Below the pieces are notes generated by a model. It ran no database searches. It saw only the letters and a list, made by a program, of their open reading frames with translations, and was not told where the DNA came from. Positions 3,211 through 32,000 of a DNA stretch of 32,000 bases are shown one piece after another. Made by a program: the position numbers and the translations under genes. This DNA is from an archaeon. GTDB taxonomy: Archaea; Iainarchaeota; Iainarchaeia; Iainarchaeales; JANQMZ01. How positions within the stretch are numbered: the stretch's first letter is position 1; each line of letters begins with the position of its first letter. The stretch is from NCBI GenBank assembly GCA_028279805.1, contig JANQMZ010000007.1:330001-362000 (forward strand), given 5' to 3'.

Positions 3211-6200
3211 TTACCTTAATTCAATTATTCTTTTTCTCACAAGCATTATTGATGAAAGCATTGCGGTAATTGTTATCAAAAGCATTACAATGTTTTCAGG
3301 CAAAGATGGCAGATTAAATGCACCTGACTGACCTCCGATTTGCCCGATGTTTAAAACATTTCCACCGGCTGTAGCTGTCACAGCCCCGTCAGGCCCAGCT
3401 GCAGTAACAGAACCGTTTCGAAATGCTTCAATTAAAGGAATTAACTGGCCGTTTTCAGCATACCATGAATTTGTTTCAGGGTCAAACCAGAAAGCCCCAT
3501 TCCTTCCCTGAGCTGAAGAAATCGTTTCAGGCGGGAAATTGTTATAGGTTATTGTAGGAACACCGTTCGGAGCAGAAAAATCAAGATTGTGTTCAGAACC
3601 GTCTTCACCTGTAATTTTTAAACCGTCAGGTGTCAGCACAGGCGGCAAAATAGGTCCGTCAAATTCTATTTCCCCGGTTTCTTTGTTTATTATTTTGAAT
3701 TTTTCAGTGCAAACCCCGTTTTCCAGATCAGAGTAAAAAACAAATCTTCTTGTAGGCGTATCAAAAATCTGGAAAGGTCCTAAATGTTCAATTGAATCAT
3801 TGAATGCATTGACTTTTGCAGCTGCCAAATCAGAACCCTGTATTGGCAATGCCTCCAGATTGAAAGCATTTTCACTGCATTGATTTTCGGGGTTAATAAC
3901 AGATTCTTCATTTAATCTTAAATCCCGAACATCTTCTGATGAAATTGTTGCTTTTGCATTCCTTTTCAACCATACAATTAACTGGTTTGAATCAGGCTTA
4001 AAAGTAATTGAACCGTTTTCAAACTGCAAAGAATTCATTAAACCTACAGGTGTTTCATCCAGGTCAAGCAAAACGGTTTCACGGTTTCCTTTAACAACAG
4101 CTTTAACCGCAGGACCTCTTACCAGTTGTCTAGGAGTTCCGTCGGCAACAATTAAATCTTCACCCGGCACAACTTTGACTGAGGGATGAGTGTCTGTAAC
4201 AATGCTTAAAGTTGTTCCGAACACCTCTGTCAAATCGTTTGAAGCAAAGCCAATTCCTGTTTGTTCTTCCACGCCAAGCTGTATGCAGTCAAGCAAATCT
4301 GAATCCAATACAAATGTTCTGGAAGATGTGTTCATTTCAAAAATAGGGTTTTCATGCCCGGGCAAAGAAGCCAAAGTGTATTTGTTGGGAATTTCTTTTG
4401 CTGCTGCCGGCAGATTATCAGAAACTAATCTTGATGCAACCTCTTCTTCTACAAGAATTTCACCAATTGAACCGTCTTCATTTAAAACATAAATTTGCCC
4501 TGTTTCAAGGTCAAAAACAATTCTTTCACCATCCGTGCCTGTTACAACTTCCTGCCCTTCCGTCCTGTATTCAGTGGGAGTTGCTTCTCCTTTAAACCAG
4601 AACATGAAAAGTTCCTGTGCTTGGGATAAGCCTTCGGCAAAACCGGTTGTTTTGACTGTGCCCTGAACAACTTTGTCTTTTTGATTTGTATTCAAAAAGT
4701 TTTCAACATCTTTTTTCAAGCCTTCCGCCTGTGAATTGGTGTAAGAATTTTCATCATCTGAAAACCATGAACTGACTTGCCCTGCAAAATCATCAAACTG
4801 TTCTGAAACAGCTTCTGTTGACAATTTTGATGAATCTTTTGCACTGCTTTTTGCAGGAGCAAACACATGAGTGTAATAGCCTCCGTGCACATCAACACAA
4901 TCATTTAATTTCGGAGCAAGCAAAGTCTGCTGTAAAGCTGTTAACAAAATTCCGGACCAGCCGAATGCAACATATCCAAGGCTTTCAGTTAAAGACAAAG
5001 CCAATCCTATTGTTGAAGGGTCTGCATTTTCAGGAAAATAACCATACGTTAATTCTTCCACAGCATCTTTGCATGTTTCCTTGTTGACAAGCCCGTCCCT
5101 TAAATTAATTTCACCCTGCCTTTCAGCATCATCTGAAATTTCACCTTTCAAATCCATATGCCTTGTAAAAGAAATCAAGGTTGAACCTTTTTCTCTTGCT
5201 TTTTCTGTTACAGTATCTTCAACTAAAAACATTTCAACCGGGCTTCCCGAATGAAATGCGGGTGAAATTGTTAACGCGTCAGGTTTTGCGACACTAATCG
5301 TACAATCCGAACAATCTTCTGAAGATGTTAAGTATAAAGCAACATTTTCAACTGTGTCCCTGCCTGTTCGGCCTGTTAAAAAATCGTAAACATTTTTTGT
5401 TGGTTCAAATTGTTCAGAAATATAATCATAAACCATGTCATAAGGCAAATGGTTTAAAATTCTGACAAACATGTCTCCCTGGTCTGAACCGGCTTGAGCA
5501 AAAAAGTCAACAAAAGCATCATTGTAAAGATTGGCATTTCCAACAGAAAAGCTTATTTTTTTCCATGAATCAGGCAATCTGAAAGCTGAAAAATCTTCAC
5601 CCAAAAATGCTCCTTTTTTAACCCACCACATTCCATAAGTGTTAAAAGTCCATTTTGCCCCGCCCCTCAAACTTGCATAATCTTTTAGTATTTCCTGCTG
5701 TTCCGCAATTGCTTTATCCAGAATGCTTGTATAACGCCTGCTCCCAAATCCTTTTTCTGCAACAGACTGAAACAATTCTTCACCGTTCCTTACACCTAAA
5801 AACCCGACATTATATCTCATTTCATCTCTTGTGTAAATATCTGCAAATTCTTCTGGGGATAACTTATGGGATGGTGTAAAATGAGCTTCAAAAATATCAA
5901 CATTTCCAATAACATCTTTTTCAATTTCATCAAGATTGTGGGGGGTGACCAAAATGTTTTCACCTTTTGCCGTTTTAATCATTAACTCTTTGTATTCAGG
6001 TAAACTTTTTCTCAAATCATCAATTGTTGCACCTTCACTTATTGCTTCTCCTTTTGCATTAGGTTCATACAAGATAAGGTTTCTGCCTTCCGAACCATAC
6101 CTTGCTTCAGGGTAAAGCCAGTCAGATGCTTCTCCTTTTGTAAAATACTGATCCAAAGGACTGTCAGATTTTAACATTGATTCCAAATCAATTACATTAT

Positions 6201-8082
6201 TTTCTGAAAGCTCCACTTTTGATTTTAATTTTTCCAAAGCATTGTTTGGAGTTAAATCGGATAATTTTACTTGTTCACCTGAATTTCTCAAATATTTTGA
6301 CAAAATGTTTCCCGATTCATCAACTTCAAGAACTGATTGAAGAGAATAAGTGCTTCCAAAATGCCCGTCCCTTAAAAATTTTTGTTCAATGTTCCACATT
6401 GCTCCAGTTGATTCCGATATTGGCAAAAAACTGTGATGAATTCCTTCCTGCCTGATGAAATAATTTTTCAAGCCATACGGTTCCCCTTTAAAAATCTGTG
6501 AAGCCGGAATATCCATTGCAAACGCATTGTCAAAACCACGCATTGCCTGAATTGCTTCCATTGAATAATTGATTCTTGCCTCTATTTCTTTAGGATGCCC
6601 TCTTGGAAAATCTTTCAAAATCTTTTTGTATTTTTGTTCAGCCAGGTTAAACATTGTTCCCTGTGTTCTTGTTATTCCCCTCAGGTCTTTTGCAAACTGG
6701 TACAATGCTTTTTTTGCTTTCGGGTCCTTTATTTTTGAAATGATTCCGTCGGGAGCATTAAATTCTTCAGTGAACCATTTTCTGAACTCTCCTCCTTTTA
6801 TTAAAACCATTCCGCCGGTGCCATGAGTCGGCTCACGCAATTTTGACAAAATTGGACTTAATTCAGGATACTTGTTTGCTAAATCCACAATTCTTCTCGC
6901 CCTGAAATCTCCCAAAGTAGGAAGCCCTTTTCCAACATCAAAACCAAGATTTTTAAAAACACTTTCAGCCTGTTCTATCGGAATATTAAGTTTTTCTGCC
7001 ATTGTTCTAGCGCTGGTACTGGCATCATTAATGTTATACAGCCTGGTGTTAAGCCTTTGAAGCAATGGCACCTGTTTTAACTGCCAAGGCCACAGCGAAC
7101 TTAATCCTTTTGAAGCTTCACCGGCTCTGCCCAGATACCCAAACAGTTTTCCAGCACCATTTAACAGCATTGGCGCTGTGCTGCTTATAACCATTTCAGC
7201 TGAAAACCATGAATTGTAATATTTGTCAAACAAGGAGTAAACTGATATGGAGCAATCGGATGTGGCACAATTTGTTTCAAAATAAGCATCAAAGTTTTTT
7301 GTTAAAACAGAATTTGAAATCAGGTTCAAAGGCTGTCTTTTAAAAGTTTGAACTGTAACCTGTTCAAGGTCTTCGTCTGCAAGCCTTTGTTCAACCTGTT
7401 CAAAATGTTCATCGTTTAAATTTGTTTGCTGCTGGAATTCTGTTGTAAGTTGTTGATATTCTTCCTCTGTTAAATCTCCCAAAGCATTTTCTCTTAAAGC
7501 GGGAACAAATTTTGACAATTCTTCTTTGATTGGTTTTGTATCAGCAATTATTCCGACTCCGGAATTTCTTAATTTTAATCTTTTTCCGGTAACCGGGCAG
7601 TTTTCTTCATCAATTTCATTGCATCTGCCCACACGCAGCGTATCAGTTAAAACAATTCCGTAAGCAAAAGGTCCGTCTATAAATTTGTCAGTTAAATGTG
7701 TTATTTCATTTACTTTTATTTTTTCATCCGGAACCGAAATGCTTACCGCTGAATCATCATCCAACGGAACAATAATGTCAGAGTTTTCAATTGAATCACG
7801 TTCTTCATTTGGTTCTGTTCCGGCGCCAATTTCTTCACCGGTAAAACCTGTTTCAAGCAAATCCAAAATGTTTTGGGCGTCCTGTTCTGATAAAGAATTT
7901 GTCTGGCATGCAAACCTTGCACTTATAACAGCCGGATTTGGATTATCATCTGCTAAAAAAATTTTTTCAGGAACCTGTTGCGGAAAACTTTGAGCATGGG
8001 TAAAAGCAAAAGCAAAGCTTGAGTTTAATAATAAAAATAAAACAAGCAAAACTGAAAATTTTTGGGCAAAATTTTTATTCAT
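3211..8082 (-). CDS. Giant secreted surface protein (1623 aa) with N-terminal signal peptide and C-terminal sortase-type anchor signal; no recognisable family
   Basis: The long ORF starts, in my call, at ATG 8082 (MNKNFAQKFSVLLVLFLLLNSSFAFAFTHAQS, a classic signal peptide, with AAGGT 8 nt upstream). The track's start at 8283 would overlap the upstream gene. The C-terminus is ...LPSLPEN-IVMLLITITAMLSSIMLV-RKRIIELR. An internal repeated Cys motif occurs as NCATSDCSISV and SSEDCSDCTISV. Confidence 0.85.
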   Translation of the reverse strand: MNKNFAQKFSVLLVLFLLLNSSFAFAFTHAQSFPQQVPEKIFLADDNPNPAVISARFACQTNSLSEQDAQNILDLLETGFTGEEIGAGTEPNEERDSIENSDIIVPLDDDSAVSISVPDEKIKVNEITHLTDKFIDGPFAYGIVLTDTLRVGRCNEIDEENCPVTGKRLKLRNSGVGIIADTKPIKEELSKFVPALRENALGDLTEEEYQQLTTEFQQQTNLNDEHFEQVEQRLADEDLEQVTVQTFKRQPLNLISNSVLTKNFDAYFETNCATSDCSISVYSLFDKYYNSWFSAEMVISSTAPMLLNGAGKLFGYLGRAGEASKGLSSLWPWQLKQVPLLQRLNTRLYNINDASTSARTMAEKLNIPIEQAESVFKNLGFDVGKGLPTLGDFRARRIVDLANKYPELSPILSKLREPTHGTGGMVLIKGGEFRKWFTEEFNAPDGIISKIKDPKAKKALYQFAKDLRGITRTQGTMFNLAEQKYKKILKDFPRGHPKEIEARINYSMEAIQAMRGFDNAFAMDIPASQIFKGEPYGLKNYFIRQEGIHHSFLPISESTGAMWNIEQKFLRDGHFGSTYSLQSVLEVDESGNILSKYLRNSGEQVKLSDLTPNNALEKLKSKVELSENNVIDLESMLKSDSPLDQYFTKGEASDWLYPEARYGSEGRNLILYEPNAKGEAISEGATIDDLRKSLPEYKELMIKTAKGENILVTPHNLDEIEKDVIGNVDIFEAHFTPSHKLSPEEFADIYTRDEMRYNVGFLGVRNGEELFQSVAEKGFGSRRYTSILDKAIAEQQEILKDYASLRGGAKWTFNTYGMWWVKKGAFLGEDFSAFRLPDSWKKISFSVGNANLYNDAFVDFFAQAGSDQGDMFVRILNHLPYDMVYDYISEQFEPTKNVYDFLTGRTGRDTVENVALYLTSSEDCSDCTISVAKPDALTISPAFHSGSPVEMFLVEDTVTEKAREKGSTLISFTRHMDLKGEISDDAERQGEINLRDGLVNKETCKDAVEELTYGYFPENADPSTIGLALSLTESLGYVAFGWSGILLTALQQTLLAPKLNDCVDVHGGYYTHVFAPAKSSAKDSSKLSTEAVSEQFDDFAGQVSSWFSDDENSYTNSQAEGLKKDVENFLNTNQKDKVVQGTVKTTGFAEGLSQAQELFMFWFKGEATPTEYRTEGQEVVTGTDGERIVFDLETGQIYVLNEDGSIGEILVEEEVASRLVSDNLPAAAKEIPNKYTLASLPGHENPIFEMNTSSRTFVLDSDLLDCIQLGVEEQTGIGFASNDLTEVFGTTLSIVTDTHPSVKVVPGEDLIVADGTPRQLVRGPAVKAVVKGNRETVLLDLDETPVGLMNSLQFENGSITFKPDSNQLIVWLKRNAKATISSEDVRDLRLNEESVINPENQCSENAFNLEALPIQGSDLAAAKVNAFNDSIEHLGPFQIFDTPTRRFVFYSDLENGVCTEKFKIINKETGEIEFDGPILPPVLTPDGLKITGEDGSEHNLDFSAPNGVPTITYNNFPPETISSAQGRNGAFWFDPETNSWYAENGQLIPLIEAFRNGSVTAAGPDGAVTATAGGNVLNIGQIGGQSGAFNLPSLPENIVMLLITITAMLSSIMLVRKRIIELR

Positions 8083-8153
8083 AAAAAAACCTTTTATTTT
8101 TGCTTTTTCTCCTATTCTAATAATATTCTCCTTTGTTTTTATTGTTAATGGGA

Positions 8154-8744
8154 TTAAGTGAATCCAAAAAATGTTAAAAAAAACAGGCCTTGTAACAGCC
8201 ACGGCGTTACAAATAACAAAATTATTGATACAAGTGTTGAAACAGCTAAAATTGCCAGAAAAAGCTGGACAAAATGAGGCCATTTGAATTTGTCTTTAAA
8301 AAAAGCCAAAAACAATGAACCCAGCAAAACAAAAGGCATTGTTAAAACCGTGTACATTGCTGAAATTAACAAAAGCCTTATTATTGAAAAAATGTAAAAT
8401 TCAGCTGTTAAACCTGTTTCCTGTGCAATTTCCTGCGGGTAAACCTGTAAAGGCGTTTCATTTAAAGCTGTTTGAAATGGTCCAAAAAACAATAAAATTA
8501 ATAAAACAAAAATTACAAAATAAACAAGCAAAGCAGAACTTTTAAGCCATGAAAGCTTGTATTTTTTCTGCAAATGCCTGAAAGGAATTGTTAAAAAAAG
8601 CACTAGAATAAAAACTGGAATTGTTAAAATGGCTGAACCTTTTAACAATGAAAAAACTGAAAACAAAGCATCAACAAAAGGGTTTAAAGCCATAAAAACC
8701 ATCAAAAGTATGAAAAAAGAACTATAAAAGGTTAAGGTTAACAT
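8154..8744 (-). CDS. Polytopic membrane protein, hypothetical
   Basis: The 196-aa product is almost entirely hydrophobic helices (about 6 TM by eye). It lies on the same strand 71 nt upstream of the giant gene, so co-transcription is likely. Confidence 0.6.
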   Translation of the reverse strand: MLTLTFYSSFFILLMVFMALNPFVDALFSVFSLLKGSAILTIPVFILVLFLTIPFRHLQKKYKLSWLKSSALLVYFVIFVLLILLFFGPFQTALNETPLQVYPQEIAQETGLTAEFYIFSIIRLLLISAMYTVLTMPFVLLGSLFLAFFKDKFKWPHFVQLFLAILAVSTLVSIILLFVTPWLLQGLFFLTFFGFT

Positions 8745-9201
8745 GAATTCAATGGAATGGCTTGGATTAATTTATTTGTTAACAGGGTCAACAGGAATTG
8801 GTTATTATTTTTTTACACTCTTAAATCCCGCAGCAGTTGAACTCGCAGAAGAATTAAAAATAGGCTGGGCAATTGTTCTAGGATTAATTTTTTCTTTTAT
8901 GGTGCTGGGATTAACACTTGCATTGCAGTTTTTTGGAATACATTCACAAATATTGTTTTTTTTAACAGCTGTACCGGTATTTTTAATTTTTTCAATTGCC
9001 GCTTACTGGAACGGCAGAAACATTGAATATGTTCCGATGTTAGAAGAAAAAAAAGAAAAAAAACCTGTTTTGGATGATAAAGAAAAAATTGTTCAAAAAC
9101 TAAAACAGGAAAAAGAAAAAACTGTTAAAAAAGATGATTCAAGCCTTAACGCAATTCTTAAAAATCTTGAAAACCTAAGAAAATCAAAAGAGGAAAAATA
9201 A
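8743..9201 (+). CDS. Membrane protein with a K/E-rich cytoplasmic tail, hypothetical
   Basis: Three N-terminal TM helices are followed by a charged tail (EEKKEKKPVLDDKEKIVQKLKQEKEK...). An alternative leaderless start at ATG 8752 lies about 26 nt downstream of TATAAAAG (8724-8731). The stop overlaps the next ATG (TAATG). Confidence 0.55.
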   Translation: MNSMEWLGLIYLLTGSTGIGYYFFTLLNPAAVELAEELKIGWAIVLGLIFSFMVLGLTLALQFFGIHSQILFFLTAVPVFLIFSIAAYWNGRNIEYVPMLEEKKEKKPVLDDKEKIVQKLKQEKEKTVKKDDSSLNAILKNLENLRKSKEEK

Positions 9202-9869
9202 TGGATGAAAAACAAAAAATGTATCCGCGCAGGTTACAAAGATTTTACAGGCGCGGAACAAAACCTGATGAAAAAAAAGCAAAAAAAATAGTAAAACATC
9301 TGGAAAAAAAAGTTCCTCAAAAAAAAGAAAAAGCAAAAAAAATTGCAATGAATGAAATTAAAAAATTCCGGGAACAAAATGAAAGATATCCAAGCGGGGA
9401 TGAAATGATGTTAATTTCTGAAAACATTTATGAACAAATAAAAGATGAACAAATTGAGAACAGAACAAGCAGTGAAACCGAAGCAGAACAGGTTGCAGAA
9501 CAATTGGAAGAAACAGGAATTGCAAAAGCAGTTTCAAAACAAAAACCAAGAGAATATTTAAGATTTAGTGAACGGCAGCAGCCAAAAGAAGAAAAAATTC
9601 CCGGATTGGAGAAAAAAAAAGAAGAAATTAAACCGTTGAAAGAAACAACACAAGAGACAAAAGAATTGGAATCAGAGCCAATTCCCGATGTTAAATCATT
9701 ATTAAAAGAAAAACCAGAAGAAAAAAAAACAGAGGAAATGGATGTAAAAAATTTGTTAAAAGAAAGCCAAACACAAAAAGAATCATCAATATCAGAATTA
9801 GAGGATAGCTTAAAGGAACTGGAAGGAATGGGTAAAAAGAAAAAAAAAGAAAAAACTAGTTCAGAGTAA
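9201..9869 (+). CDS. Highly charged K/E-rich low-complexity protein, hypothetical
   Basis: The 222-aa ORF is translationally coupled to the upstream gene. It has no TM segments and contains a repeated DVK[SN]LLKE motif. Its 3' end overlaps the convergent pilin-like gene by 14 nt. Confidence 0.5.
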   Translation: MDEKQKMYPRRLQRFYRRGTKPDEKKAKKIVKHLEKKVPQKKEKAKKIAMNEIKKFREQNERYPSGDEMMLISENIYEQIKDEQIENRTSSETEAEQVAEQLEETGIAKAVSKQKPREYLRFSERQQPKEEKIPGLEKKKEEIKPLKETTQETKELESEPIPDVKSLLKEKPEEKKTEEMDVKNLLKESQTQKESSISELEDSLKELEGMGKKKKKEKTSSE

Positions 9870-10602
9870 GATTTTGAAGTTCAGGACAGTTTAAATTGGA
9901 TGCCTGTAAAGCCTCTTTAATATCAGTTGAAGGCCACATTAAAAGGCTTGATAAAGCCCGAACATTTCTGGGATTTTTTGGATCAGTGTAATCAGGCAAA
10001 AAAACACTTAACTCGGGGGCCCTGGAAACCTCACCCACATGCCTTACAAAATTAACACGGATTGAATCAAGAGATTCATTTGAAGTGCAAAAAGAACCAA
10101 TGCGTAAAATATTCCGCCCACCGGGACTATCTTCATCTTCAACCGATAAGCCGGAGTAAAGAAAAATTATGACAAATTCTTCCAGCAATCTTTCATCTTC
10201 TTCAGATTTTTTCAAAGAATAAATATAGTAAAGGTAATCAAAATTTCTTTGAAAAGGAGACATAACCGTTTCAATATTGTTTTTAAGGCTTGTTTTTGTT
10301 GAATCCTTTAACCTTGAACCGTTTTTTTCAATTATAGCATAATCCTCCTTTAAAACAGCTAACAAATAATCAATTTCCTCTGATTCATTTAAAGACAAAT
10401 TGTCTCTTGCCGTAGAAGAATATAAAATTGTTTTTAGTGCGGATGTGGCAAACTCTGTGTTATACTGTTTAACAGTCTGAGTGGTTACAAGGGAACCATA
10501 ATTTGCAGTGTAAAAAAACATTAAAGTTGCCAGGCCTGAAATAATTATTAAAAAATACATTGCATCCGTTACAGATGCCTGACCTTTCCTGTTTAAAGCC
10601 AT
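9856..10602 (-). CDS. Class III signal peptide (archaeal type IV pilin-like) protein
   Basis: The N-terminus MALNRKG|QASVTDAMYFLIIISGLATLMFF has a short basic leader, a KG|Q cleavage-type motif and a hydrophobic helix. GGTGGTGG lies upstream of the ATG. It is the last gene of the pilus operon. Confidence 0.65.
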   Translation of the reverse strand: MALNRKGQASVTDAMYFLIIISGLATLMFFYTANYGSLVTTQTVKQYNTEFATSALKTILYSSTARDNLSLNESEEIDYLLAVLKEDYAIIEKNGSRLKDSTKTSLKNNIETVMSPFQRNFDYLYYIYSLKKSEEDERLLEEFVIIFLYSGLSVEDEDSPGGRNILRIGSFCTSNESLDSIRVNFVRHVGEVSRAPELSVFLPDYTDPKNPRNVRALSSLLMWPSTDIKEALQASNLNCPELQNLTLN

Positions 10603-11225
10603 GCAACCACCACCAGCAAAACAGGGCGAACAGCAAAACCTGTTTTGGTGCAGCCGGTTAAGCCATGCGGGTTTTCAATAACACCACATTTTAATTTGTC
10701 TTCAAAAGCAATCGGAAAAAATCTTACAAACAACGAATCTTCACTTGAAACAATATCCTTTTTTTGTAAAATTAAATTTTCTTCATCCGGAATATTTGAA
10801 CATTTAAATTTTTTAAGTTCATTTGAAGAATCAGCTCTTTCAAGAACTGAAATTGTTTCTGTTTTTCCGTCCGAAACAAGAATTTGAGTTTCATCTTTGT
10901 TTACAAGTTCTTTTGGATTAAAATTAAAATTTTGAGAGCCTATTTTTAAAGGAATGATAAAAGCTTTGAATGAAATTCCGGAAACAGTTACCTGGTTACA
11001 GGCTGTTTCAAACTCTGAAAAATCACGCAAATAAGAATCTCCTTTTAACACATTTGCAAGCCTTAAAACATCGGTGTTATTGGAAAAAGTTGCAGCTCCT
11101 TTTTGATAAACATTAAACGTGGAAGTAAAGGTTGAAAAAAAAATAACCAGAGCAAAAAGCAGCGGAATTAAACTGGGCAAATCGTCTCCAATAGGCCCCA
11201 GAAAACCTTTTTTGTTAAAATTCAT
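10593..11225 (-). CDS. Pilin-like or pilus accessory protein with a degenerate class III signal
   Basis: The N-terminus MNFNKKG|FLGPIGDDLPSLIPLLFALVIFF resembles the archaeal pilin N-terminal 'G..P.IG...L' type. GGAGG lies 8 nt upstream. The start overlaps the upstream stop (TAATG). Confidence 0.5.
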   Translation of the reverse strand: MNFNKKGFLGPIGDDLPSLIPLLFALVIFFSTFTSTFNVYQKGAATFSNNTDVLRLANVLKGDSYLRDFSEFETACNQVTVSGISFKAFIIPLKIGSQNFNFNPKELVNKDETQILVSDGKTETISVLERADSSNELKKFKCSNIPDEENLILQKKDIVSSEDSLFVRFFPIAFEDKLKCGVIENPHGLTGCTKTGFAVRPVLLVVVAWL

Positions 11226-11872: not shown

Positions 11873-11884
11873 TTCAATTCACCT

Positions 11885-12418: not shown

Positions 12419-12434
12419 GCAAAACAACCTTTTT

Positions 12435-16112: not shown

Positions 16113-16116
16113 AAAA

Positions 16117-27939: not shown

Positions 27940-29670
27940 TTGAATGAAAAAGCGTTTAATCTTTTTACTGCGTTACTTTCATTCATTTTAATCATTTTAA
28001 CTGTTTTATTGTTGAATGCGATGCTTCAGGCTGAAGGCGATGCTCAAAGCATTTTGTCAAGCACAAGCGAACAGTCAAGGCTTGAAGCCGTGCTTGAACT
28101 GACAAGAGCTGATGCTTTGCAGATATTTAACCATGCAATGCGTGTTTCAATAGAAGAATATATGGCTCTGAATGAAATTACTTTTGAAAGGGATAAATGG
28201 CAGGATTGGGATGCATTAATTGAAGATGTAAGGGTTGGAAAATTCGGAGGGCAAAGAGAAGATGAAACTGAGACAACTGCTTTTGCAAGTTTAATGGCTT
28301 CAAATCTGGTCAGCCTGTATTCAAGTTCGGATTTTGGTGCTGTTGGCTCCTATGATATTTCAATTGATACAAAAAGCCAGAAAAACTTAAGGGACGCATT
28401 AAAAGATATTTTAACAGCAGATGATTCTTTTTTGCAGGTGGTTGGATGTGAAAATGGAAAAATTGAAACATGTGAAAAAGGCACTTTTTACCTGGAACTT
28501 GACATGAGTGTTTTGTCAGATGAAGATTATGAAACAAAAATTCCAAAAATTGTGTTAAAAGACAATTCAACAAGCAGAACAATACGAGACCCGGTTCTTC
28601 CAAAAACAAAAATAAGATTGTATGTTCCTCTGCGTTTGTTTAAAGCAATAGCTTATTCAAGGGCAATGGCTTTCAATGTGGATGCACTTGAAGTGAATAA
28701 TACTGTGGAAGATTACGGCTTGTTGTCTTTAAGAATGCATAACGAGTTTGACAGCATGGCGCTTGGCTTATGTGATCCGGGTTATTGTAAAGCAAGAACA
28801 AATCCTTATTATCCGCCCATATCAAAAAGTTCAACTGAAGCATGCCCGTTTAATGAACCGAGAGTAAATGATTATTATGAAAATAATCCGATAAGGCTTG
28901 ACCCAGATGAAACATTGTCATTTACAAATGTTTCAAAATATAATCCGACTCCGTCGGCAAGGGATTCAGGAAAACAGCTTGGCAATATTGTGATTGACAG
29001 AGCCTGCGAAATAGCGGAAAAACAATTTACACAGGTTGCTTACGGAGGAAAATCGTTGGAAGAATTGGCCGGTGAAACATTTGAATTAAAGGGAACAAGT
29101 GATTGTTCTTTCATCAGCAAAGCTGTTGCGGGTTCAAATTCAAGAATTTCAAAAAGAATAGCTGGAAGCGGAGGCTCAGGAGGAGGCGGAAGAAATGTTT
29201 CTGTGCAAAGGCCAAACCTTTCATTTGCAAATCCTAATTCAATTTGTCCTCTGAGTTCTGCACAGTTGGCTGACTCGCAGCAAATGGGCTGGGGTGGACT
29301 ATATTTTAATCCGAATACGGGAAAACATGAAAAGCCGGATACAAGCGGAATGATTTTTTTTAATGATGCGGATTTTGAAGATTTTGCGGAATGTGCACAG
29401 CTTGAAACTTTAAGAATAACAATAGAATTTCAAGAAAAAGATGAAAGGTATAAGGTAAGCGAGTCAGATTTGACTTACAAATTTGTTTTGGCAGACGATT
29501 ATGTTCCGTTTAATCCAAACATGGTTATTGGTGAGCCTGACGCAGCATGTTCTTTGCAGATGCCTTTCCCGTCACCAAATTATAATGAAAATGACTGGAC
29601 ATGCCGTTATGGCGGAAGCGCGGGAGGATTATCTGAAGGGGGAACAATAAGCGGATGTTATCCTGCTTAA
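27940..29670 (+). CDS. Large (576 aa) Cys-rich protein with a pilin-like N-terminus, hypothetical
   Basis: The frame opens after TGA at 27931-27933. The only start that retains the N-terminal helix is TTG 27940, preceded by GTGAT (27929-27933). The N-terminus is MNEKA|FNLFTALLSFILIILTVLLLNAML. A Gly linker AGSGGSGGGGRN is present. The product has many Cys residues. Confidence 0.7.
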   Translation: MNEKAFNLFTALLSFILIILTVLLLNAMLQAEGDAQSILSSTSEQSRLEAVLELTRADALQIFNHAMRVSIEEYMALNEITFERDKWQDWDALIEDVRVGKFGGQREDETETTAFASLMASNLVSLYSSSDFGAVGSYDISIDTKSQKNLRDALKDILTADDSFLQVVGCENGKIETCEKGTFYLELDMSVLSDEDYETKIPKIVLKDNSTSRTIRDPVLPKTKIRLYVPLRLFKAIAYSRAMAFNVDALEVNNTVEDYGLLSLRMHNEFDSMALGLCDPGYCKARTNPYYPPISKSSTEACPFNEPRVNDYYENNPIRLDPDETLSFTNVSKYNPTPSARDSGKQLGNIVIDRACEIAEKQFTQVAYGGKSLEELAGETFELKGTSDCSFISKAVAGSNSRISKRIAGSGGSGGGGRNVSVQRPNLSFANPNSICPLSSAQLADSQQMGWGGLYFNPNTGKHEKPDTSGMIFFNDADFEDFAECAQLETLRITIEFQEKDERYKVSESDLTYKFVLADDYVPFNPNMVIGEPDAACSLQMPFPSPNYNENDWTCRYGGSAGGLSEGGTISGCYPA

Positions 29671-29768: not shown

Positions 29769-32000
29769 ATGCCTGAGGATAATTTTTACCGGAAAATTGA
29801 AAACAAGTATTATGATTTAATGGAATCAATTGACGGGAAAGGCATTCCTGTCTACAAAGTTATTGATTTTATTGAGGAAAGAAATATTCCGAGTTTTCCG
29901 GTTTTTATTGTATTTATTCTTGCATTGGTTTTAGGAATCGGCTTTTTGCTTTCAGGATTTTTGCAGCCTACTGTTCTTGTATCTGTTTCAGGCAACGGGC
30001 AAAAAATTTCACTGGCTAACGTGGAATTGGTTGTGGACGGGGAAATTTTTTCTTCAGGAACAACAGATGAATCCGGAAATGTTTTATTGGTTGCACCTTC
30101 GGAAAAAAATTTTTCAATACAGGTTTCAAAAGCCGGGTTTGAAGACAAAACTTTGAGAGGCTTACTGTCAGATGGAAGCACTGTTGATGTTGAATTGCTG
30201 GAAAAAATTGGAAGCAGAATAATTTCATTCAAGGACGATGAAACCGGTGCATTAATTGAACAGGATTTGGTTGTAACTTTTTATTGTTCTGATTCTGATT
30301 TTGAAACAACACGTGTTTTAAGTGACGGAACAATTGAACTTGAAAATGTTCCGGGGGATTGTGGCACACTGACTTTCAGGCAGATTGAAGGATTTGAATC
30401 TGGAACAACCTCAATTAATGTTAATGAAGCTGAATCTGAAATTGTTTTAAAAAATCTGGGCAGTACCGGAATTGCTGATGTAATAGTTACAGGTGAAGAT
30501 GGCTTGCCTGTTTTCGGGGCAACAGTTTCTCTGATGAGTACACAGGGAACAAAAAACGAGGAAGATGACATTGTGGAACAGGTAAGCGAAACAACACAGG
30601 CAGGGATTGCTTCATTTGAGTCTGTGCCTTTGTCAGATTATTATGTGATTGTGGCAGACGATGAACATGAACAAAAGAAAAGCGAGATTCAGAGCCTTTC
30701 ATTTGAAGCTTTAACGTTTAGTGTTTCTCTTGAAAAAACAAGTTCGGGAATTGTAAAAGTCAGAGTTAAAAATGCACAGAATGAATTGTTAAAAGATGCG
30801 CAGGTTAAACTTGTAAAAGAAGATGTGGAACATGATTCAGGCTTTACTGATGAATCTGGTACAGTGGAATTAAGGGTTAATGCTTCTTTGAATTATAATT
30901 TGATTGTTTCAAAGCAGGGATTTGCCGAGGCAAAAGTTTCAAATGTTTCAGTCGGGGAAGAATTTTATGAAATTAGTTTAACAAAAGCAACAGCTTCAAA
31001 CACTGCCAATCTGGTTGTAAAAGTTATTGATTCAGAATCAGATCCGGTGGAAAACGCAAAAATTTTGTTAAAATATGCGGATGGTGAAACCGCCGGAGAG
31101 CCTGTTATAACGGGAATTAAGGGAAAGGCAGAGTTTTTTGACGTGGCTCCGGGAAGATATTATGTTCACGCGGTAAAAGAAGGATTTGAAGGGGTAACCA
31201 CAAACGAGTTTTCCTTAAATGCAGGGCAACAGAAAACTGAAACATTTCAGTTAAAACTGGGTTTCGGGCAGATTGATGTAATTGTTTTAAACGATGACGG
31301 GGAAAAAATAAGCGGAGCAACAGTTAAAGCTTATGATTTTTATTCACAGCAACTGTTAGACGAAAAACTTGGAAGCGAGGGAACAGCATCCTTTAATTTA
31401 AGAGTTGACAGGCTGCCTTTTTTTGTTATAACCCATCCTGATTATTCTTCTTTTACAAGTGCAACATTAAAACCTGTTAAAGGATTAACACAGCAGAAAA
31501 AAGTTGAACTTGTAAAAAATGTTTCAGCATTAAAAGCAGAATTTTTAGGATTGTTTTTGAATGAACAAACTGAAAAATCCTTAAACCCGGGAACAAAATA
31601 CACTGCAAAAATGAGATTGCTTGTTCCTGAAACAAAAACATATTCAAAAGTCGGATTCTTTTTAAGAACAGGGGAAGGAGTTCTGAACAAAACAAACAAA
31701 ATGGAAGAAGACTCGGTTTTTATTAAAAATGTTAAAACGTCGGCAGACAGTTTGAGAAAAGGAATGTCTTATACGCCCAACAAAGGTTTTTCATCTGATG
31801 CTAAAAATTTAACATCAGGCAATGCAAAATGGGTTCAGATGGAATGGGAAATTCAGGGATTACTACCAAAAACAGGAGTGTTTGAAGTTGAAGCAGAAAT
31901 ACAGGTAAAAAGTGAGGCAAGCATAGGCGATTCCGCAAAAATTTCTTACAGAGGTTTCGGAATTTCAGGGAATACAATTGAAAGAAATCCTGTTGACAAT
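29769..32000 (+). CDS. Giant N-terminally anchored surface protein, paralogue of 19722-27923, 3'-truncated by the window edge (at least 744 aa)
   Basis: This ORF is not in the track because it runs off the window. My hand translation from ATG 29769 found no stop through 32000. The N-terminus MPEDNFYRKIENKYYDLMESIDGKGIPVYKVIDFIEERNIPSFPVFIVFILALVLGIGFL parallels the 2733-aa protein. Six beta-sandwich modules follow, then ALKAEFLGLFLNEQTEK, which corresponds to ELEFLGIFNEQGQK in the paralogue. Confidence 0.8.
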   Translation, partial: MPEDNFYRKIENKYYDLMESIDGKGIPVYKVIDFIEERNIPSFPVFIVFILALVLGIGFLLSGFLQPTVLVSVSGNGQKISLANVELVVDGEIFSSGTTDESGNVLLVAPSEKNFSIQVSKAGFEDKTLRGLLSDGSTVDVELLEKIGSRIISFKDDETGALIEQDLVVTFYCSDSDFETTRVLSDGTIELENVPGDCGTLTFRQIEGFESGTTSINVNEAESEIVLKNLGSTGIADVIVTGEDGLPVFGATVSLMSTQGTKNEEDDIVEQVSETTQAGIASFESVPLSDYYVIVADDEHEQKKSEIQSLSFEALTFSVSLEKTSSGIVKVRVKNAQNELLKDAQVKLVKEDVEHDSGFTDESGTVELRVNASLNYNLIVSKQGFAEAKVSNVSVGEEFYEISLTKATASNTANLVVKVIDSESDPVENAKILLKYADGETAGEPVITGIKGKAEFFDVAPGRYYVHAVKEGFEGVTTNEFSLNAGQQKTETFQLKLGFGQIDVIVLNDDGEKISGATVKAYDFYSQQLLDEKLGSEGTASFNLRVDRLPFFVITHPDYSSFTSATLKPVKGLTQQKKVELVKNVSALKAEFLGLFLNEQTEKSLNPGTKYTAKMRLLVPETKTYSKVGFFLRTGEGVLNKTNKMEEDSVFIKNVKTSADSLRKGMSYTPNKGFSSDAKNLTSGNAKWVQMEWEIQGLLPKTGVFEVEAEIQVKSEASIGDSAKISYRGFGISGNTIERNPVDN
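29967..31525 (+). repeat. Array of six beta-sandwich (carboxypeptidase-regulatory-like) modules at the protein level
   Basis: Examples are KVIDSESDPVENAKILLKYADGETAGEPVITGIKGKAEFFDVAPGRYYVHAVKEGFE and IDVIVLNDDGEKISGATVKAYDF...GSEGTASFNL. The number and order of modules match the paralogue. Confidence 0.55.

What the first reader, a model, noticed from the sequence alone, without database searches (positions are those of the whole stretch)
3211..32000. Window-scale cell-surface island: pilus operon flanked by three giant surface proteins, an archaeosortase and a pilin-like giant partner
By my coordinate sums, about 25.6 kb of the 32 kb encodes surface machinery. This comprises a 9-gene type IV pilus-like operon (8.5 kb), three giant proteins (4.9, 8.2 and at least 2.2 kb), a 576-aa pilin-like protein and an archaeosortase-family enzyme. 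None of the giant proteins matches a family I can name. This co-localisation is what one would expect of a dedicated attachment or host-interaction apparatus in a small-genome episymbiotic archaeon. That functional reading is inference.
Basis: partly seen in the sequence, partly recalled or inferred. Interest (0 to 1): 0.75.

Follow-up and report, generated by a model that had tools for sequence, protein, structure and literature searches.

The report
DPANN pilus–archaeosortase–giant surface protein island
This window from a small-genome DPANN archaeon (Iainarchaeota) holds a type IV pilus operon wired to a new small archaeosortase and a family of giant surface proteins. The arrangement is conserved across about 28 related genomes and is probably a cell-contact apparatus, though what it does is still inferred.

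Summary

- **Pilus operon:** nine genes, made up of a PilB/FlaI-type ATPase, a PilC/TadC-like platform and seven pilin-like genes.
- **Archaeosortase:** a 177-aa exosortase/archaeosortase-family protein with an invariant Cys-Arg-His.
- **Large proteins:** three giants and a 576-aa pilin-like protein.

I fetched 28 loci from Iainarchaeota/Diapherotrites genomes using the archaeosortase as query.
- A Giant2 homologue (2.0–2.9 kaa) lies directly downstream in 22 of 23 loci that have enough flank.
- The ATPase/platform/pilin operon lies upstream in 14 of 17.
- The 576-aa partner follows the giant wherever the contig reaches that far.

New findings:
1. Giant2 and Giant3 belong to a family of at least 796 protein clusters. 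It is defined by a roughly 42-aa N-terminal module ending in IPSFP plus a membrane helix.
2. Giant1 carries a conserved C-terminal FNLPSLP + helix + basic tail. This makes it the likely classical substrate of the archaeosortase.
3. Two Giant2 orthologues end in peptidoglycan hydrolase domains.

No S-layer family matches any of the giants. Function remains inferred, whether attachment or host contact, and an episymbiotic lifestyle was not tested. I rate this a new variant of known kinds (archaeal type IV pilus loci with large adhesins, and archaeosortase systems).

The parts
3..542 (+). C-terminal part of a TadC/T2SSF-like platform protein, cut by the window start. It belongs to a second type IV filament locus and lies outside the finding.
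   Evidence: PF00482 T2SSF, E 2.3e-6, 28 bits against a cut-off of 25.2. In the syntenic locus L035 a 580-aa T2SSE-like ATPase precedes it.
512..1432 (+). Second T2SSF-like platform protein of the same upstream locus.
   Evidence: PF00482, E 5.2e-9, 36.6 bits. Conserved in L035.
3211..8082 (-). Giant1, 1623 aa. It has a Sec-type signal peptide, a large ectodomain, and a C-terminal FNLPSLPEN + membrane helix + RKR tail. It is the candidate classical substrate of the archaeosortase.
   Evidence: ORF. No Pfam, NCBIfam or PDB hit. The tail motif FNLPSLP + helix + basic residues is conserved in all three orthologues, L013, L035 and L036.
8154..8744 (-). Six-helix membrane protein of unknown function, 196 aa, adjacent to Giant1.
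   Evidence: Hydropathy analysis. No family hit. A homologue sits next to Giant1 in L035, E 3e-11.
8743..9869 (+). Two small genes of 152 aa (two helices plus a Lys/Glu-rich tail) and 222 aa (Lys/Glu-rich). Role unknown and membership of the system uncertain.
   Evidence: A Lys/Glu-rich gene sits at the same position in L035, and there is a weak hit in L018.
9856..10602 (-). Pilin-like protein pil248. N-terminus: RKGQ, then a hydrophobic helix.
   Evidence: N-terminus conserved in six loci as KGQA[AS][IV]TDA.... No Pfam pilin model matches.
10593..11225 (-). Pilin-like protein pil210. N-terminus: KKG-FLGPIGDDLPSLIPL, then a helix.
   Evidence: GPIGDDLPSL[IV]PL is invariant in seven orthologues.
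11225..11872 (-). Pilin-like protein pil215. It has a very short leader, M-I-A-G|FTLSK, which resembles the bacterial G|FTL site.
   Evidence: ML-G-FTLSK[IL]NLLI is conserved in ten loci.
11885..12418 (-). Pilin-like protein pil192, 177 aa from the likely start. N-terminus: SGQESAPFELLVAVI...
   Evidence: KGQE[ES]APF[EQ]LLVAVI is conserved in 11 loci.
12435..12623 (-). 62-aa pilin-like protein (EEKAQ|GSWSSVY..., helix, KPMFQQSQ). Candidate major pilin.
   Evidence: Called as a gene. 45-67% identical in 12 loci at the same operon position. Coordinates. Small major pilins of about 70 aa are typical of clade-1 archaeal type IV pili (PMC4858521).
12748..13299 (-). Pilin-like protein pil183 (NQKGQAFATFRLLISAIVA...). 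This gene is often present as tandem paralogues in relatives.
   Evidence: KGQ[EA]FSxFKLLI[SA]AIVA is conserved in more than 20 ORFs.
13348..13803 (-). Pilin-like protein pil151 (NQKGQEFESYRLLIGII...).
   Evidence: Conserved in 14 loci.
13800..16112 (-). PilC/TadC/FlaJ-like polytopic platform protein, 770 aa, nine predicted helices.
   Evidence: PF00482 T2SSF, E 3.3e-3, 17.8 bits, below the cut-off of 25.2. Helices. 43-52% identical and always next to the ATPase in relatives.
16117..18402 (-). Type IV filament assembly ATPase of the PilB/FlaI/TadA family, 761 aa, with an N-terminal extension of about 290 aa that contains a Cys cluster.
   Evidence: PF00437, E 1e-19. FlaI model 139 bits, far below its cut-off of 550, and TadA model 129 bits. 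60-68% identical in relatives.
18504..18944 (+). 146-aa protein of unknown function. Not conserved at this position.
   Evidence: No family hit. Other loci carry different genes here.
19063..19596 (+). Mini archaeosortase/exosortase-family protein, 177 aa. It is not a member of any named subfamily.
   Evidence: TIGR04178, 26.3 bits against a cut-off of 23. XrtH, XrtX and ArtD models score far below their cut-offs. Homologues carry PF09721. C89, R131 and H151 are invariant in 14 sequences. AF2 mean pLDDT 87.5.
19722..27923 (+). Giant2, 2733 aa. It has an N-terminal 42-aa module ending in KG-IPSLP plus a membrane helix, then Ig-like repeats, then a helical C-terminal region and a divergent C-terminal domain.
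   Evidence: CarboxypepD_reg, E 1.9e-11. A homologue lies directly downstream of the archaeosortase in 22 of 23 loci. N-terminal module. C-terminal alignment to the SLT domain of L005.
27940..29670 (+). 576-aa pilin-like partner. N-terminus: NEKA|FNLFTALLSFILI.., with an N-terminal helix of about 75 residues, then a Cys-rich globular domain with no known fold.
   Evidence: 23 homologues, all from Diapherotrites or unnamed sources, with N-terminus [KR][AG]F[NT]LFTAL conserved. AF2 pLDDT 73.9 and pTM 0.73. No Foldseek PDB hit below E 0.89. It follows Giant2 in every locus that reaches that far.
29769..32000 (+). Giant3, a paralogue of Giant2. The first 744 aa of 2359 lie in the window. It has the same N-terminal module (ERN-IPSFP + helix) followed by CarboxypepD_reg repeats.
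   Evidence: PF13620, E 3.5e-34, three stretches. Full length is P0041. The same Giant2-partner-Giant3 order occurs in L030 and L034.

Best explanation
This is a conserved cell-surface island of an Iainarchaeota (DPANN) archaeon, built from two coupled modules.

**Module A: a type IV pilus machine**
- It has a PilB/FlaI-family ATPase and a PilC/TadC-like platform.
- It has seven small proteins with prepilin-type N-termini.
- Several of these carry KGQ, as in EppA-type pilins.
- The 62-aa protein may be the major pilin.

**Module B: transcribed divergently from the ATPase**
- A mini archaeosortase.
- A giant of 2-3.6 kaa. Positive-inside statistics suggest it is anchored by an N-terminal helix with its bulk outside the cell. 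The bulk is made of Ig-like repeats.
- A pilin-like protein of about 570 aa.
- In some genomes, including this one, a second paralogous giant.

**Giant1** has a Sec signal peptide and a C-terminal LPSLP + helix + basic tail. It is the probable substrate that the archaeosortase cleaves and re-anchors.

**Proposed mechanism**
- The pilus attaches to a surface or another cell, and may retract.
- The giants act as long-reach adhesins.
- The 576-aa pilin-like protein, and the conserved cytoplasm-facing N-terminal IPSFP module of the giants, connect the giants to the pilus machinery.
- In some lineages the distal end of the giant carries peptidoglycan hydrolases, which implies contact with bacterial cell walls.

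**What is shown and what is inferred**
- Shown: gene identities, conservation of the linkage, the motifs, and the taxon.
- Inferred: topology, substrate assignment, coupling to the pilus, and the adhesion or host-contact role.
For: **Component identities**
- T2SSE ATPase and T2SSF platform.
- Archaeosortase signature above its cut-off, with an invariant Cys/Arg/His.
- Prepilin-like N-termini conserved across loci.

**Linkage**
- Three look-ups through the archaeosortase gave the same layout.
- Among the 28 GTDB species loci, Giant2 lies downstream in 22 of 23 and the ATPase upstream in 14 of 17.
- The Giant2-partner-Giant3 triple recurs in L030 and L034.
- Giant1 is syntenic with the pilus operon in L035 and lies 8 kb from the archaeosortase in L013.

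**Giant family**
- 796 clusters match the N-terminal profile at E <= 1e-3. The match always falls at residues 1-130.
- Full-length members are 2.2-3.6 kaa.
- All 150 top representatives have [ILVM]P[SAT][FL]P plus a hydrophobic run of about 24 aa at a median position of 43.
- K+R averages 1.42 before the helix and 0.52 after it. The count is higher before the helix in 92 representatives and lower in 11, so the N-terminus faces inward and the bulk outward.

**Giant1 tail**
- FNLPSLP + helix + basic tail in all 4 orthologues.
- This is the tripartite layout that defines archaeosortase substrates (PMC6098224).

**Surface and contact role**
- Ig-like CarboxypepD_reg, Big_1 and SpaA-type hits.
- A VWA-domain giant in sister islands.
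- SLT domain at the C-terminus of the L005 orthologue: 40.5 bits against a cut-off of 21.3.
- NlpC/P60, Amidase_3 and Glucosaminidase at the C-terminus of P0127.

**Precedent**
- Archaeal clade-1 type IV pilus loci carry at least 5 minor pilins and two large predicted tip adhesins (PMC4858521).
Against: - No prepilin peptidase gene lies in the window, and no Pfam or NCBIfam pilin model matches any of the pilin-like proteins.
- The platform protein scores below the Pfam cut-off.
- There is no direct evidence that the giants touch the pilus. Adjacency could reflect co-regulation only.
- Peptidoglycan hydrolase domains occur in only 2 of roughly 100 giants examined.
- The window's Giant2 lacks the catalytic Glu-Ser of SLT, and the family profile's match to MltC is not significant (E 0.42).
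- Giant1 was found near the island in only three genomes.
- The archaeosortase is tightly linked to Giant2, which has no C-terminal sorting signal, rather than to Giant1.
- Giant-family members also occur without a pilus or archaeosortase nearby (L033 and L034).
- Iainarchaeota have been described as possibly free-living.
Confidence: 0.6

Rival explanations
1. Envelope biogenesis rather than a contact apparatus. The giants are the S-layer or cell-sheath proteins of this lineage. The archaeosortase anchors them, as ArtA anchors the Haloferax S-layer glycoprotein. The pilus operon is only a neighbour that has to pass through the same envelope.
For: - Giant1 has the architecture of an archaeosortase-processed S-layer glycoprotein: a Sec signal, a large ectodomain and a C-terminal motif + helix + basic tail.
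- Makarova et al. also note S-layer-like large proteins with C-terminal helices inside archaeal type IV pilus loci.
- The giants are large and rich in Ig-like repeats.
Against: - No S-layer family matches. The best is the SlaB model at 16 bits against a cut-off of 700.
- Giant2 and Giant3 have no C-terminal sorting signal.
- A dedicated pilin-like partner always follows Giant2.
- Murein hydrolase tips in two orthologues make no sense for a self-envelope in an archaeon.
- Having two to three divergent paralogous giants per locus is more typical of adhesins.
Confidence: 0.17
2. The giants are themselves giant modular pilins. The 42-aa N-terminal module is an unusually long class III (prepilin) leader. 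It is cut after [KR]G by a prepilin peptidase, and the IPSFP helix is then built into the pilus, probably at the tip together with the 576-aa pilin-like protein. The pilus would then display a 2700-aa adhesin.
For: - A conserved [KR]-G sits directly before the hydrophobic helix: G at position -1 in 98 of 150 and K/R at position -2 in 97 of 150.
- The N-in topology places this site on the cytoplasmic face, where prepilin peptidases act (PMC6098224).
- The giant is tightly linked to a pilus operon and a pilin-like partner.
- Modular pilins with grafted adhesive modules are known in bacteria (my own knowledge: Streptococcus sanguinis PilB/PilC).
Against: - Position -1 is Asn in 45 of 150 members, including the window's Giant3 (ERN|IPSFP). 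From my own knowledge, that would not be expected to be cleaved by a prepilin peptidase.
- The leader is far longer and better conserved than known prepilin leaders.
- Pro at positions +2 and +5 is unlike known archaeal pilins.
- No peptidase gene lies in the window.
Confidence: 0.2
3. The IPSFP + helix module is an N-terminal sorting signal read by the adjacent archaeosortase. The same enzyme would also read Giant1's C-terminal LPSLP + helix.
For: - The archaeosortase sits immediately upstream of an IPSFP giant in 22 of 23 loci.
- The motif [IL]PS[LF]P abutting a helix is shared by the Giant2/3 N-termini and the Giant1 C-termini. It occurs nowhere else in about 187,000 aa of ORFs from these loci.
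- It resembles known short Pro-containing sorting motifs such as PEP, PGF, PIP and VPXXXP (my own knowledge).
Against: - The predicted topology puts the giant's motif on the cytoplasmic side.
- The enzyme's Cys89, Arg131 and His151 sit near the outer ends of its helices.
- The helix runs in the opposite direction relative to the motif compared with all known substrates.
- Every described exosortase or archaeosortase signal is C-terminal.
Confidence: 0.12
4. The island has the same components but serves a free-living lifestyle. It would be used for adhesion to particles or biofilms and for scavenging cell-wall debris, not for interaction with a host.
For: - Iainarchaeota have been reported to have enough anabolic capacity to live freely (PMC10936187).
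- Hydrolase tips are rare.
- Type IV pili serve surface adhesion in many free-living archaea.
Against: - The investment is very large for a genome of about 0.85 Mb: about 26 kb in this window alone.
- The giant family is shared with Micrarchaeota. From my own knowledge, their cultured members depend on hosts.
- Giant proteins combined with pili recur in episymbionts (PMC8080830).
Confidence: 0.25

Closest known systems
Clade-1 (Methanococcus/Thermococcus Epd-type) archaeal type IV pilus loci, as described by Makarova, Koonin and Albers 2016 (PMC4858521)
   Same: - A PilB-type ATPase and a TadC-like platform.
- Five or more minor pilin-like genes.
- A very small candidate major pilin.
- Pilins with Gln after the Gly of the leader.
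- Two large proteins in the locus predicted to be adhesins.
   Different: - The large proteins here lack DUF2341 and are 3-5 times larger.
- They carry a unique N-terminal IPSFP module.
- An archaeosortase and a roughly 570-aa pilin-like partner are fixed parts of the locus.
- No EppA or FleN/MinD gene lies in the window.
- The ATPase is 761 aa with a long N-terminal extension.
- The host is a DPANN archaeon, a group not mentioned in that census (a term search of the paper found no DPANN, Diapherotrites or Iainarchaeum).
Archaeosortase systems ArtA-ArtE with PGF-, VPXXXP-, PEF- and PIP-CTERM substrates, and the small exosortases XrtH and XrtX
   Same: - The family signature, the Cys-Arg-His triad and a polytopic membrane protein.
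- A genome-encoded partner, Giant1, with motif + helix + basic tail.
- A size of about 160-200 aa, like XrtH, XrtX and ArtD.
   Different: - Scores are far below every named subfamily's cut-off: XrtH 28.5 against 86, ArtD 20.2 against 125.
- The candidate motif, FNLPSLP, matches no curated C-terminal sorting model.
- The system occurs in DPANN, whereas archaeosortases were described from a subset of Euryarchaeota.
- The gene is fixed next to a giant whose related motif is N-terminal.
Giant surface proteins plus type IV pili of ultrasmall episymbionts, e.g. Vampirococcus lugosii (CPR; PMC8080830). Nanohaloarchaeal SPEARE proteins are a further example, from my own knowledge.
   Same: - A small genome that invests heavily in pili and in membrane-anchored proteins of 1.4-4 kaa with adhesion-type repeats.
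- Lytic domains in some members.
   Different: - No sequence relationship was detected.
- Here the giants, a pilin-like partner, an archaeosortase and the pilus operon form one conserved cassette, and the giants share a defined N-terminal module.
- I did not test SPEARE homology.
[quoted passage not shown]
   Same: A short, highly conserved N-terminal segment lies on the cytoplasmic side, directly before a single helix, in a protein encoded with a type IV filament machine.
   Different: - There is no sequence similarity.
- The extracellular part is about 2600 aa rather than about 150 aa.
- The docking partner is unknown.
- This is an analogy for how the module might work, not a claim of membership.

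Membership tests
Type IV filament (type IV pilus-like) system | PilB/GspE/FlaI-family secretion ATPase | tested here: met
   PF00437, E 1e-19, 70.9 bits against a cut-off of 24.9.
Type IV filament (type IV pilus-like) system | PilC/TadC/FlaJ polytopic platform protein encoded next to the ATPase | tested here: inconclusive
   PF00482, 17.8 bits, below the cut-off of 25.2. In its favour, it has nine predicted helices, it overlaps the ATPase gene's neighbourhood, and it is 43-52% conserved next to the ATPase in all relatives.
Type IV filament (type IV pilus-like) system | Pilins with a class III signal: a short charged leader, Gly or Ala at position -1, then a hydrophobic helix | tested here: inconclusive
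   By inspection, all seven small proteins and the 576-aa protein have such N-termini, conserved across loci. No Pfam or NCBIfam pilin model matches, and FlaFind was not available.
Type IV filament (type IV pilus-like) system | Prepilin peptidase (PibD/EppA/FlaK) | tested here: not met
   No Peptidase_A24 hit among the window's proteins. The rest of the 853-kb genome could not be searched.
Archaellum | ArlH/FlaH, ArlF/G and archaellins next to ArlI/ArlJ | tested here: not met
   The FlaI model scores 139 bits against a cut-off of 550. No FlaH, FlaF, FlaG or archaellin hits in the operon.
Exosortase/archaeosortase family | Family signature domain | tested here: met
   TIGR04178, 26.3 bits against a cut-off of 23. 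10 of the 14 non-identical homologues carry PF09721.
Exosortase/archaeosortase family | Conserved catalytic Cys, Arg and His | tested here: met
   C89, R131 (within N128-x-x-R131) and H151 are invariant in 14 sequences at 40-55% identity. Catalysis itself was not tested.
Exosortase/archaeosortase family | Cognate proteins with a C-terminal motif + helix + basic cluster in the same genome | tested here: met
   Giant1 ends in FNLPSLPEN-IVMLLITITAMLSSIMLV-RKR. The same layout occurs in L013, L035 and L036. Only one candidate substrate was seen, because only the window was available.
Named archaeosortase/exosortase subfamilies (ArtA-E, XrtH, XrtX, XrtM, XrtG) | Score above the subfamily model's cut-off | tested here: not met
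   XrtH 28.5 against 86, XrtX 28.1 against 170, XrtM 25.3 against 125, ArtD 20.2 against 125, XrtG 18.2 against 103.
Clade-1 archaeal type IV pilus with PilY-like adhesins | Large locus-encoded proteins containing DUF2341 | tested here: not met
   No DUF2341 hit in Giant1, Giant2 or Giant3 at E <= 0.01.
S-layer proteins | A match to a curated S-layer family | tested here: not met
   No Pfam hit. The NCBIfam SlaB model scores 16.4 bits against a cut-off of 700, and only for Giant3. No PDB sequence match.
Peptidoglycan-hydrolase-tipped giant proteins | A recognisable murein hydrolase domain in the protein | tested here: not met
   The window's Giant2 has none. Orthologues do: SLT in L005, and NlpC/P60, Amidase_3 and Glucosaminidase in P0127. 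This is only 2 of roughly 100.
Modular type IV pilins (the giant as a pilin) | Gly (or Ala/Ser) at position -1 of a prepilin cleavage site, directly before the helix | tested here: inconclusive
   Gly in 98 of 150 and Asn in 45 of 150 family representatives. Giant2 has KG|IPSLP and Giant3 has RN|IPSFP.

The most novel reading that the evidence does not exclude
The IPSFP + helix module at the N-terminus of this giant family of at least 796 clusters may be a new kind of targeting signal. Two versions are open. In the first, the adjacent mini archaeosortase handles it, which would be the first N-terminal substrate class for the exosortase/archaeosortase superfamily. In the second, it docks the giants to the type IV pilus motor. 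Either way, DPANN archaea would deploy giant proteins of more than 2000 residues from a pilus machine as harpoon-like adhesins. Some would carry murein-lytic tips aimed at bacterial partners.
Probability: 0.15. Interest if true: 0.85.

Novelty: new variant of a known kind. Interest (0 to 1): 0.62.

Why it matters
How DPANN archaea recognise and hold on to other cells is largely unknown. Iainarchaeota have no cultured representative.

This cassette gives a concrete, conserved and testable candidate for that apparatus.
- It consists of a pilus machine, an unclassified archaeosortase with a candidate new sorting motif (LPSLP-CTERM), a pilin-like partner, and a large family of giant proteins with a diagnostic N-terminal module. 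That module can be used to find them in metagenomes.
- Murein hydrolase domains on two orthologues raise the possibility that some Iainarchaeota interact with bacteria rather than archaea.
- The family also extends archaeosortases into DPANN.
- It poses a mechanistic puzzle: why is an archaeosortase fixed next to a protein whose related motif is at the wrong end?

Tried and rejected
**Searches that gave nothing**
- Word-indexed homology search with the first 130 aa of Giant2 returned nothing, not even the protein itself. I replaced it with the exhaustive profile search.
- Sequence searches of Giant1, Giant2 and the 576-aa protein against the PDB: no hits.
- Foldseek of the AF2 model of the 576-aa protein against the PDB: nothing below E 0.89. 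A GspK-like or other known minor-pilin fold could therefore not be supported.
- Foldseek of the archaeosortase model: no match, and no solved relative appears to exist.
- Permissive Pfam and NCBIfam scans of the pilin N-termini, the giant N-terminus and the Giant1 tail found no pilin, class III signal or CTERM models.
- No tRNA genes lie in the window.

The lysozyme-like fold of that domain is therefore untested.

**Ideas considered and rejected**
- An archaellum: no FlaH, FlaF, FlaG or archaellins.
- The six-helix protein at 8154-8744 as the prepilin peptidase: it has no GxGD-type motif, by inspection.
- Widespread peptidoglycan hydrolase tips: a phmmer census found only two lineages.

**Literature**
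- Searches for Iainarchaeota/Diapherotrites with pili, archaeosortase or giant proteins found no description of this cassette.

Full report
**1. What is in the window**

ORF listing, translation and family scans give the following map.

Left edge, outside the finding:
- Two T2SSF-type platform genes lie at 3-542 and 512-1432. They belong to a second type IV filament locus that the window start cuts.
- Two archaeal housekeeping genes follow. One is a PAC2-family gene at 1543-2337. The other is a CTP-dependent riboflavin kinase with an HTH domain at 2334-2987, minus strand.

From 3211 onward:
- Giant1 is an ORF at 3211-8283, minus strand. Its likely true start is 8082, where a Sec-type signal peptide MNKNFAQKFSVLLVLFLLLNSSFAFA begins. 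The orthologues align from this point.
- A six-helix membrane gene lies at 8154-8744.
- Two small Lys/Glu-rich genes lie on the plus strand.
- A nine-gene minus-strand operon runs from 9856 to 18402.
- A 146-aa gene of unknown function follows.
- The 177-aa archaeosortase-family gene lies at 19063-19596.
- Giant2 lies at 19722-27923 (2733 aa).
- The 576-aa protein lies at 27940-29670.
- Giant3 starts at 29769 and runs off the window. Its full length is 2359 aa (P0041).

The corrections are minor.

**2. The pilus operon**

- The ATPase matches PF00437 (E 1e-19). It resembles FlaI and TadA models but falls far below their cut-offs.
- The 770-aa neighbour has nine predicted helices and a sub-threshold T2SSF match.
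- Seven small genes encode proteins with a short charged N-terminus, a Gly or Ala, and then a hydrophobic helix.

Their N-termini are conserved across 6-20 related loci each:

| Protein | Conserved N-terminal pattern |
|---|---|
| pil151 | KGQEFxxF[KR]LLIGAI |
| pil183 | KGQ[EA]FSxFKLLISAIVA |
| pil192 | KGQE[ES]APFELLVAVI |
| pil248 | KGQAA[IV]TDA |
| pil215 | MLG-FTLSKINLLI |
| pil210 | KG[FY]LGPIGDDLPSLIPL |
| 62-aa protein | EEKAQSEWxSVY...KPMFQQSQ |

- No curated pilin model matches any of them. Calling them pilins therefore rests on these features and on the operon context. This is the usual situation for archaeal pilins (PMC6098224).
- No prepilin peptidase gene lies in the window.
- There is no FlaH, FlaF, FlaG or archaellin, so this is not an archaellum.
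- The closest described system is the clade-1 archaeal type IV pilus. That system has at least 5 minor pilins, major pilins of about 70 aa, and two large predicted tip adhesins (PMC4858521).

**3. The archaeosortase**

- The 177-aa protein passes the generic exosortase/archaeosortase signature TIGR04178 (26.3 bits against a cut-off of 23). It falls far below every subfamily model, including XrtH, XrtX, XrtM, ArtD and XrtG.
- Its homologues carry PF09721.
- In an alignment of 14 sequences at 40-55% identity, Cys89 (YLCTG), Asn128-x-x-Arg131 and His151 are invariant.
- AF2 with this alignment gives a confident model: pLDDT 87.5, with four long helices and a small beta-sheet. No solved structure resembles it.
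- The Lys-rich N-terminus and the SIRKR loop place Cys, Arg and His toward the outer ends of the helices. From my own knowledge, this agrees with the topology generally predicted for the family.

**4. Taxon**

- Scanning one genome per GTDB species with the archaeosortase alignment returned 28 loci.
- All are MAGs labelled Candidatus Iainarchaeum, Diapherotrites or 'archaeon', except one labelled Micrarchaeota.
- Homologues of the 576-aa protein are labelled Diapherotrites wherever they carry a name.
- The window's own proteins occur on a 65-kb Logan contig and on an NCBI contig of 853,278 bp.
- The ATPase is 60-68% identical to those of Iainarchaeota MAGs.

**5. The linkage test**

Three neighbourhood look-ups through archaeosortase homologues showed the same order:
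- pilins, platform and ATPase on one strand;
- then archaeosortase, giant and a protein of about 567 aa on the other strand.

tblastn of all window proteins against the fetched loci gave these counts, after duplicates were removed:

| Linkage | Count |
|---|---|
| Giant2 homologue starting 68-4600 bp downstream of the archaeosortase, same strand (loci with at least 3 kb of downstream sequence) | 22 of 23 |
| ATPase upstream (loci with at least 4 kb of upstream sequence) | 14 of 17 |
| 576-aa partner after the giant | every locus whose contig reaches past the giant's end |

- The Giant2-partner-Giant3 triple recurs in L030 and L034.
- Giant1 is less tightly linked. It lies 8 kb upstream of the archaeosortase in L013.
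- In L035, a metagenome contig, Giant1 is fully syntenic with the window. That synteny includes the second T2SSF locus, PAC2, the six-helix gene and the pilus operon.
- Giant-family members also occur away from any pilus or archaeosortase (L033 and L034).

**6. The giants**

No Pfam, NCBIfam or PDB family describes them beyond Ig-like CarboxypepD_reg, Big_1 and SpaA-type repeats. The best-conserved part of Giant2 and Giant3 is the first 45 residues or so:

M-I-S-E-K-L-G-x-I-Y-x-x-I-E-D-K-[FW]-Y-x-x-x-D-x-L-E-x-K-G-I-P-V-Y-x-x-I-D-P-I-E-E-[KR]-[GN]-I-P-S-F-P, followed by a hydrophobic run of about 24 residues.

Family size and distribution:
- A two-sequence profile of this region, searched against 1.84 billion cluster representatives, found 796 proteins at E <= 1e-3 and 256 at E <= 1e-10.
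- The match always lies at the extreme N-terminus, and full-length members are 2200-3600 aa.
- Named members come from Diapherotrites and Micrarchaeota. They are annotated only as hypothetical or 'carboxypeptidase regulatory-like domain-containing'.

Motif statistics:
- All 150 best representatives have [ILVM]P[SAT][FL]P plus the helix at a median position of 43.
- Position -1 is Gly in 98 and Asn in 45.
- Position -2 is Arg or Lys in 97.

Topology:
- Positive charges are enriched before the helix. K+R averages 1.42 before it and 0.52 after it, and the count is higher before in 92 representatives against 11.
- The module is therefore most likely cytoplasmic and the 2600-aa body extracellular.

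Distal ends:
- The L005 orthologue lies directly downstream of the archaeosortase in an Iainarchaeum MAG. It ends in a bona fide SLT lytic transglycosylase domain (PF01464, 40.5 bits against a cut-off of 21.3).
- P0127 (locus L034) ends in NlpC/P60, Amidase_3 and Glucosaminidase domains.
- A phmmer census found no further cases among roughly 100 giants.
- The window's Giant2 C-terminus aligns with the SLT region of L005, but it lacks the catalytic Glu-Ser.
- The family profile's best PDB match is the SLT helix of MltC, at a non-significant E of 0.42.
- Sister islands also contain a 1434-aa VWA-domain protein.

**7. Giant1 and the sorting motif**

Giant1 ends in FNLPSLPEN, a helix, and RKRIIELR. 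The three orthologues end in:
- FNLPSLPEE + helix + RIRINKNKN;
- FNLPSLPPE + helix + RHAKRRAKKRRV;
- FNLPSLPEE + helix + RIKIQKDD.

This is the tripartite layout that defines archaeosortase and exosortase substrates, where each subfamily has its own motif (PMC6098224). No curated C-terminal sorting model matches it. I therefore propose Giant1 as a classical substrate, with LPSLP-CTERM as the cognate signal of this unclassified archaeosortase.

One observation remains unexplained.
- The same short motif, [IL]PS[LF]P abutting a helix, is what ends the Giant2/3 N-terminal module.
- In about 187,000 aa of ORFs from all loci, a P[SAFTG][FLIM]P motif followed by a helix occurs only in these two contexts.
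- The pilin-like pil210 has a related invariant DDLPSLIPL + helix.
- The giant's motif is predicted to lie on the cytoplasmic face and to precede its helix in the opposite membrane direction. Direct processing by an outward-facing archaeosortase is therefore hard to picture.
- Even so, the archaeosortase gene is fixed next to exactly these giants.

**8. The 576-aa partner**

- Its N-terminus, M-N-[EQ]-[KR]-[AG]-F-[NT]-L-F-T-A-L-L, is close to the bacterial prepilin G|FTL pattern. It is nearly invariant in 23 homologues.
- Eight Cys positions are conserved.
- AF2 with that alignment gives pLDDT 73.9 and pTM 0.73. The model has an N-terminal helix of about 75 residues followed by an alpha/beta globular part.
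- Foldseek finds nothing comparable in the PDB.
- It behaves like a large minor pilin, but I could not show this by fold.

**9. Most likely mechanism and rivals**

Best-supported reading (confidence about 0.6): this is a contact apparatus.
- A type IV pilus attaches and possibly retracts.
- The giants are membrane-anchored long-reach adhesins, and their conserved cytoplasmic module and pilin-like partner tie them to the machine.
- Giant1 is re-anchored by the archaeosortase.
- Some lineages arm the giant's tip with murein hydrolases.

Sub-hypotheses for the N-terminal module:

| Hypothesis | Confidence | Main point against |
|---|---|---|
| Long prepilin leader, making the giant a giant modular pilin | about 0.2 | Asn at position -1 in 30% of members |
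| N-terminal archaeosortase signal | about 0.12 | Predicted topology |
| PilN-like cytoplasmic docking peptide | not scored | Analogy only |

Rivals at the level of overall function:

| Rival | Confidence | Points for and against |
|---|---|---|
| S-layer or envelope biogenesis | about 0.17 | Giant1's architecture fits. The lack of family hits, the pilin-like partner and the murein hydrolases do not. |
| Adhesion or scavenging in a free-living cell | about 0.25 | Iainarchaeota have been called possibly free-living. |

**10. Novelty**

Three of the ingredients are already known:
- archaeal type IV pilus loci with large adhesins;
- archaeosortase systems;
- giant proteins combined with pili in ultrasmall symbionts.

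I did not find the following described in the searchable literature or in curated family libraries:
- the fixed cassette of pilus operon, mini archaeosortase, IPSFP giant and pilin-like partner;
- an archaeosortase lineage in DPANN with a candidate LPSLP-CTERM signal;
- the family of giants, at least 796 clusters, defined by the N-terminal module.

I rate this a new variant of known kinds. A minority reading, that the module is an N-terminal sorting or pilus-docking signal, would be categorically new if it proved true.

Noticed in passing
window 3-1432 (+); L035 758-3979: A second, separate type IV filament locus lies at the window's left edge. It has two T2SSF-type genes, and in the syntenic contig L035 a 580-aa T2SSE-like ATPase precedes them. 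The organism therefore has at least two such machines side by side.
   Followed up: partly
window 8154-8744 (-): A 196-aa six-helix membrane ORF is not called as a gene on the public contig, where two tiny ORFs are called instead. It is conserved next to Giant1 in L035 (E 3e-11). It has no family match and its function is unknown.
   Followed up: partly
window 12435-12623 (-): A 62-aa protein (EEKAQ-GSWSSVY..., helix, KPMFQQSQ) is 45-67% identical in 12 loci, which makes it better conserved than any other pilin-like gene of the operon. It may be the major pilin.
   Followed up: partly
window 16117-18402 (-), residues 1-290 of the ATPase: The pilus ATPase has a conserved N-terminal extension of about 290 aa containing a Cys cluster (CKDCVYGASIADDRHCMYH). 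This is a possible metal-binding or docking domain. It is absent from the Pfam T2SSE match, which covers residues 398-611.
   Followed up: no
L027 4141-7959 (-): In one relative the ATPase ORF is 1272 aa instead of about 760. tblastn aligns only 496 residues of the window ATPase to it. An insertion such as an intein is possible.
   Followed up: no
L005 10733-19444; L034 4763-14887 (P0127): Two Giant2 orthologues end in bacterial-type murein hydrolases: SLT in one, and NlpC/P60, Amidase_3 and Glucosaminidase in the other. Finding these in a DPANN archaeon hints at bacterial partners or prey.
   Followed up: yes
L015 1704-6008; L020 343-3792: In sister islands, proteins of 1149-1434 aa sit between the pilin genes. 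The L015 protein carries VWA domains, and both start with a hydrophobic N-terminal helix (MEQNTFRLAAYAIIAAVLL...). These are candidate modular-pilin-type adhesins.
   Followed up: partly
window Giant2 residues about 2100-2150 and 2530-2560; same region in P0053, P0058, P0075 and L004: A conserved, moderately hydrophobic, Cys-containing segment (e.g. GTYFAGCTATSLIAGMWIKGPGDLVFDCVIPSVW) lies inside the otherwise helical C-terminal third of Giant2-type proteins. It could be a membrane-inserting element.
   Followed up: no
window 10593-11225 (-), residues 8-30: The pilin-like pil210 has an invariant GPIGDDLPSLIPL directly before its helix. This echoes the [IL]PS[LF]P motif of the giants. I have no explanation for it.
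   Followed up: partly
L025 12398-19963; L023 2135-9196: Two relatives carry a different giant (2521 aa and 2353 aa) next to the archaeosortase. These have an ordinary signal-peptide-like N-terminus and no IPSFP module, so the giant slot is exchangeable.
   Followed up: no
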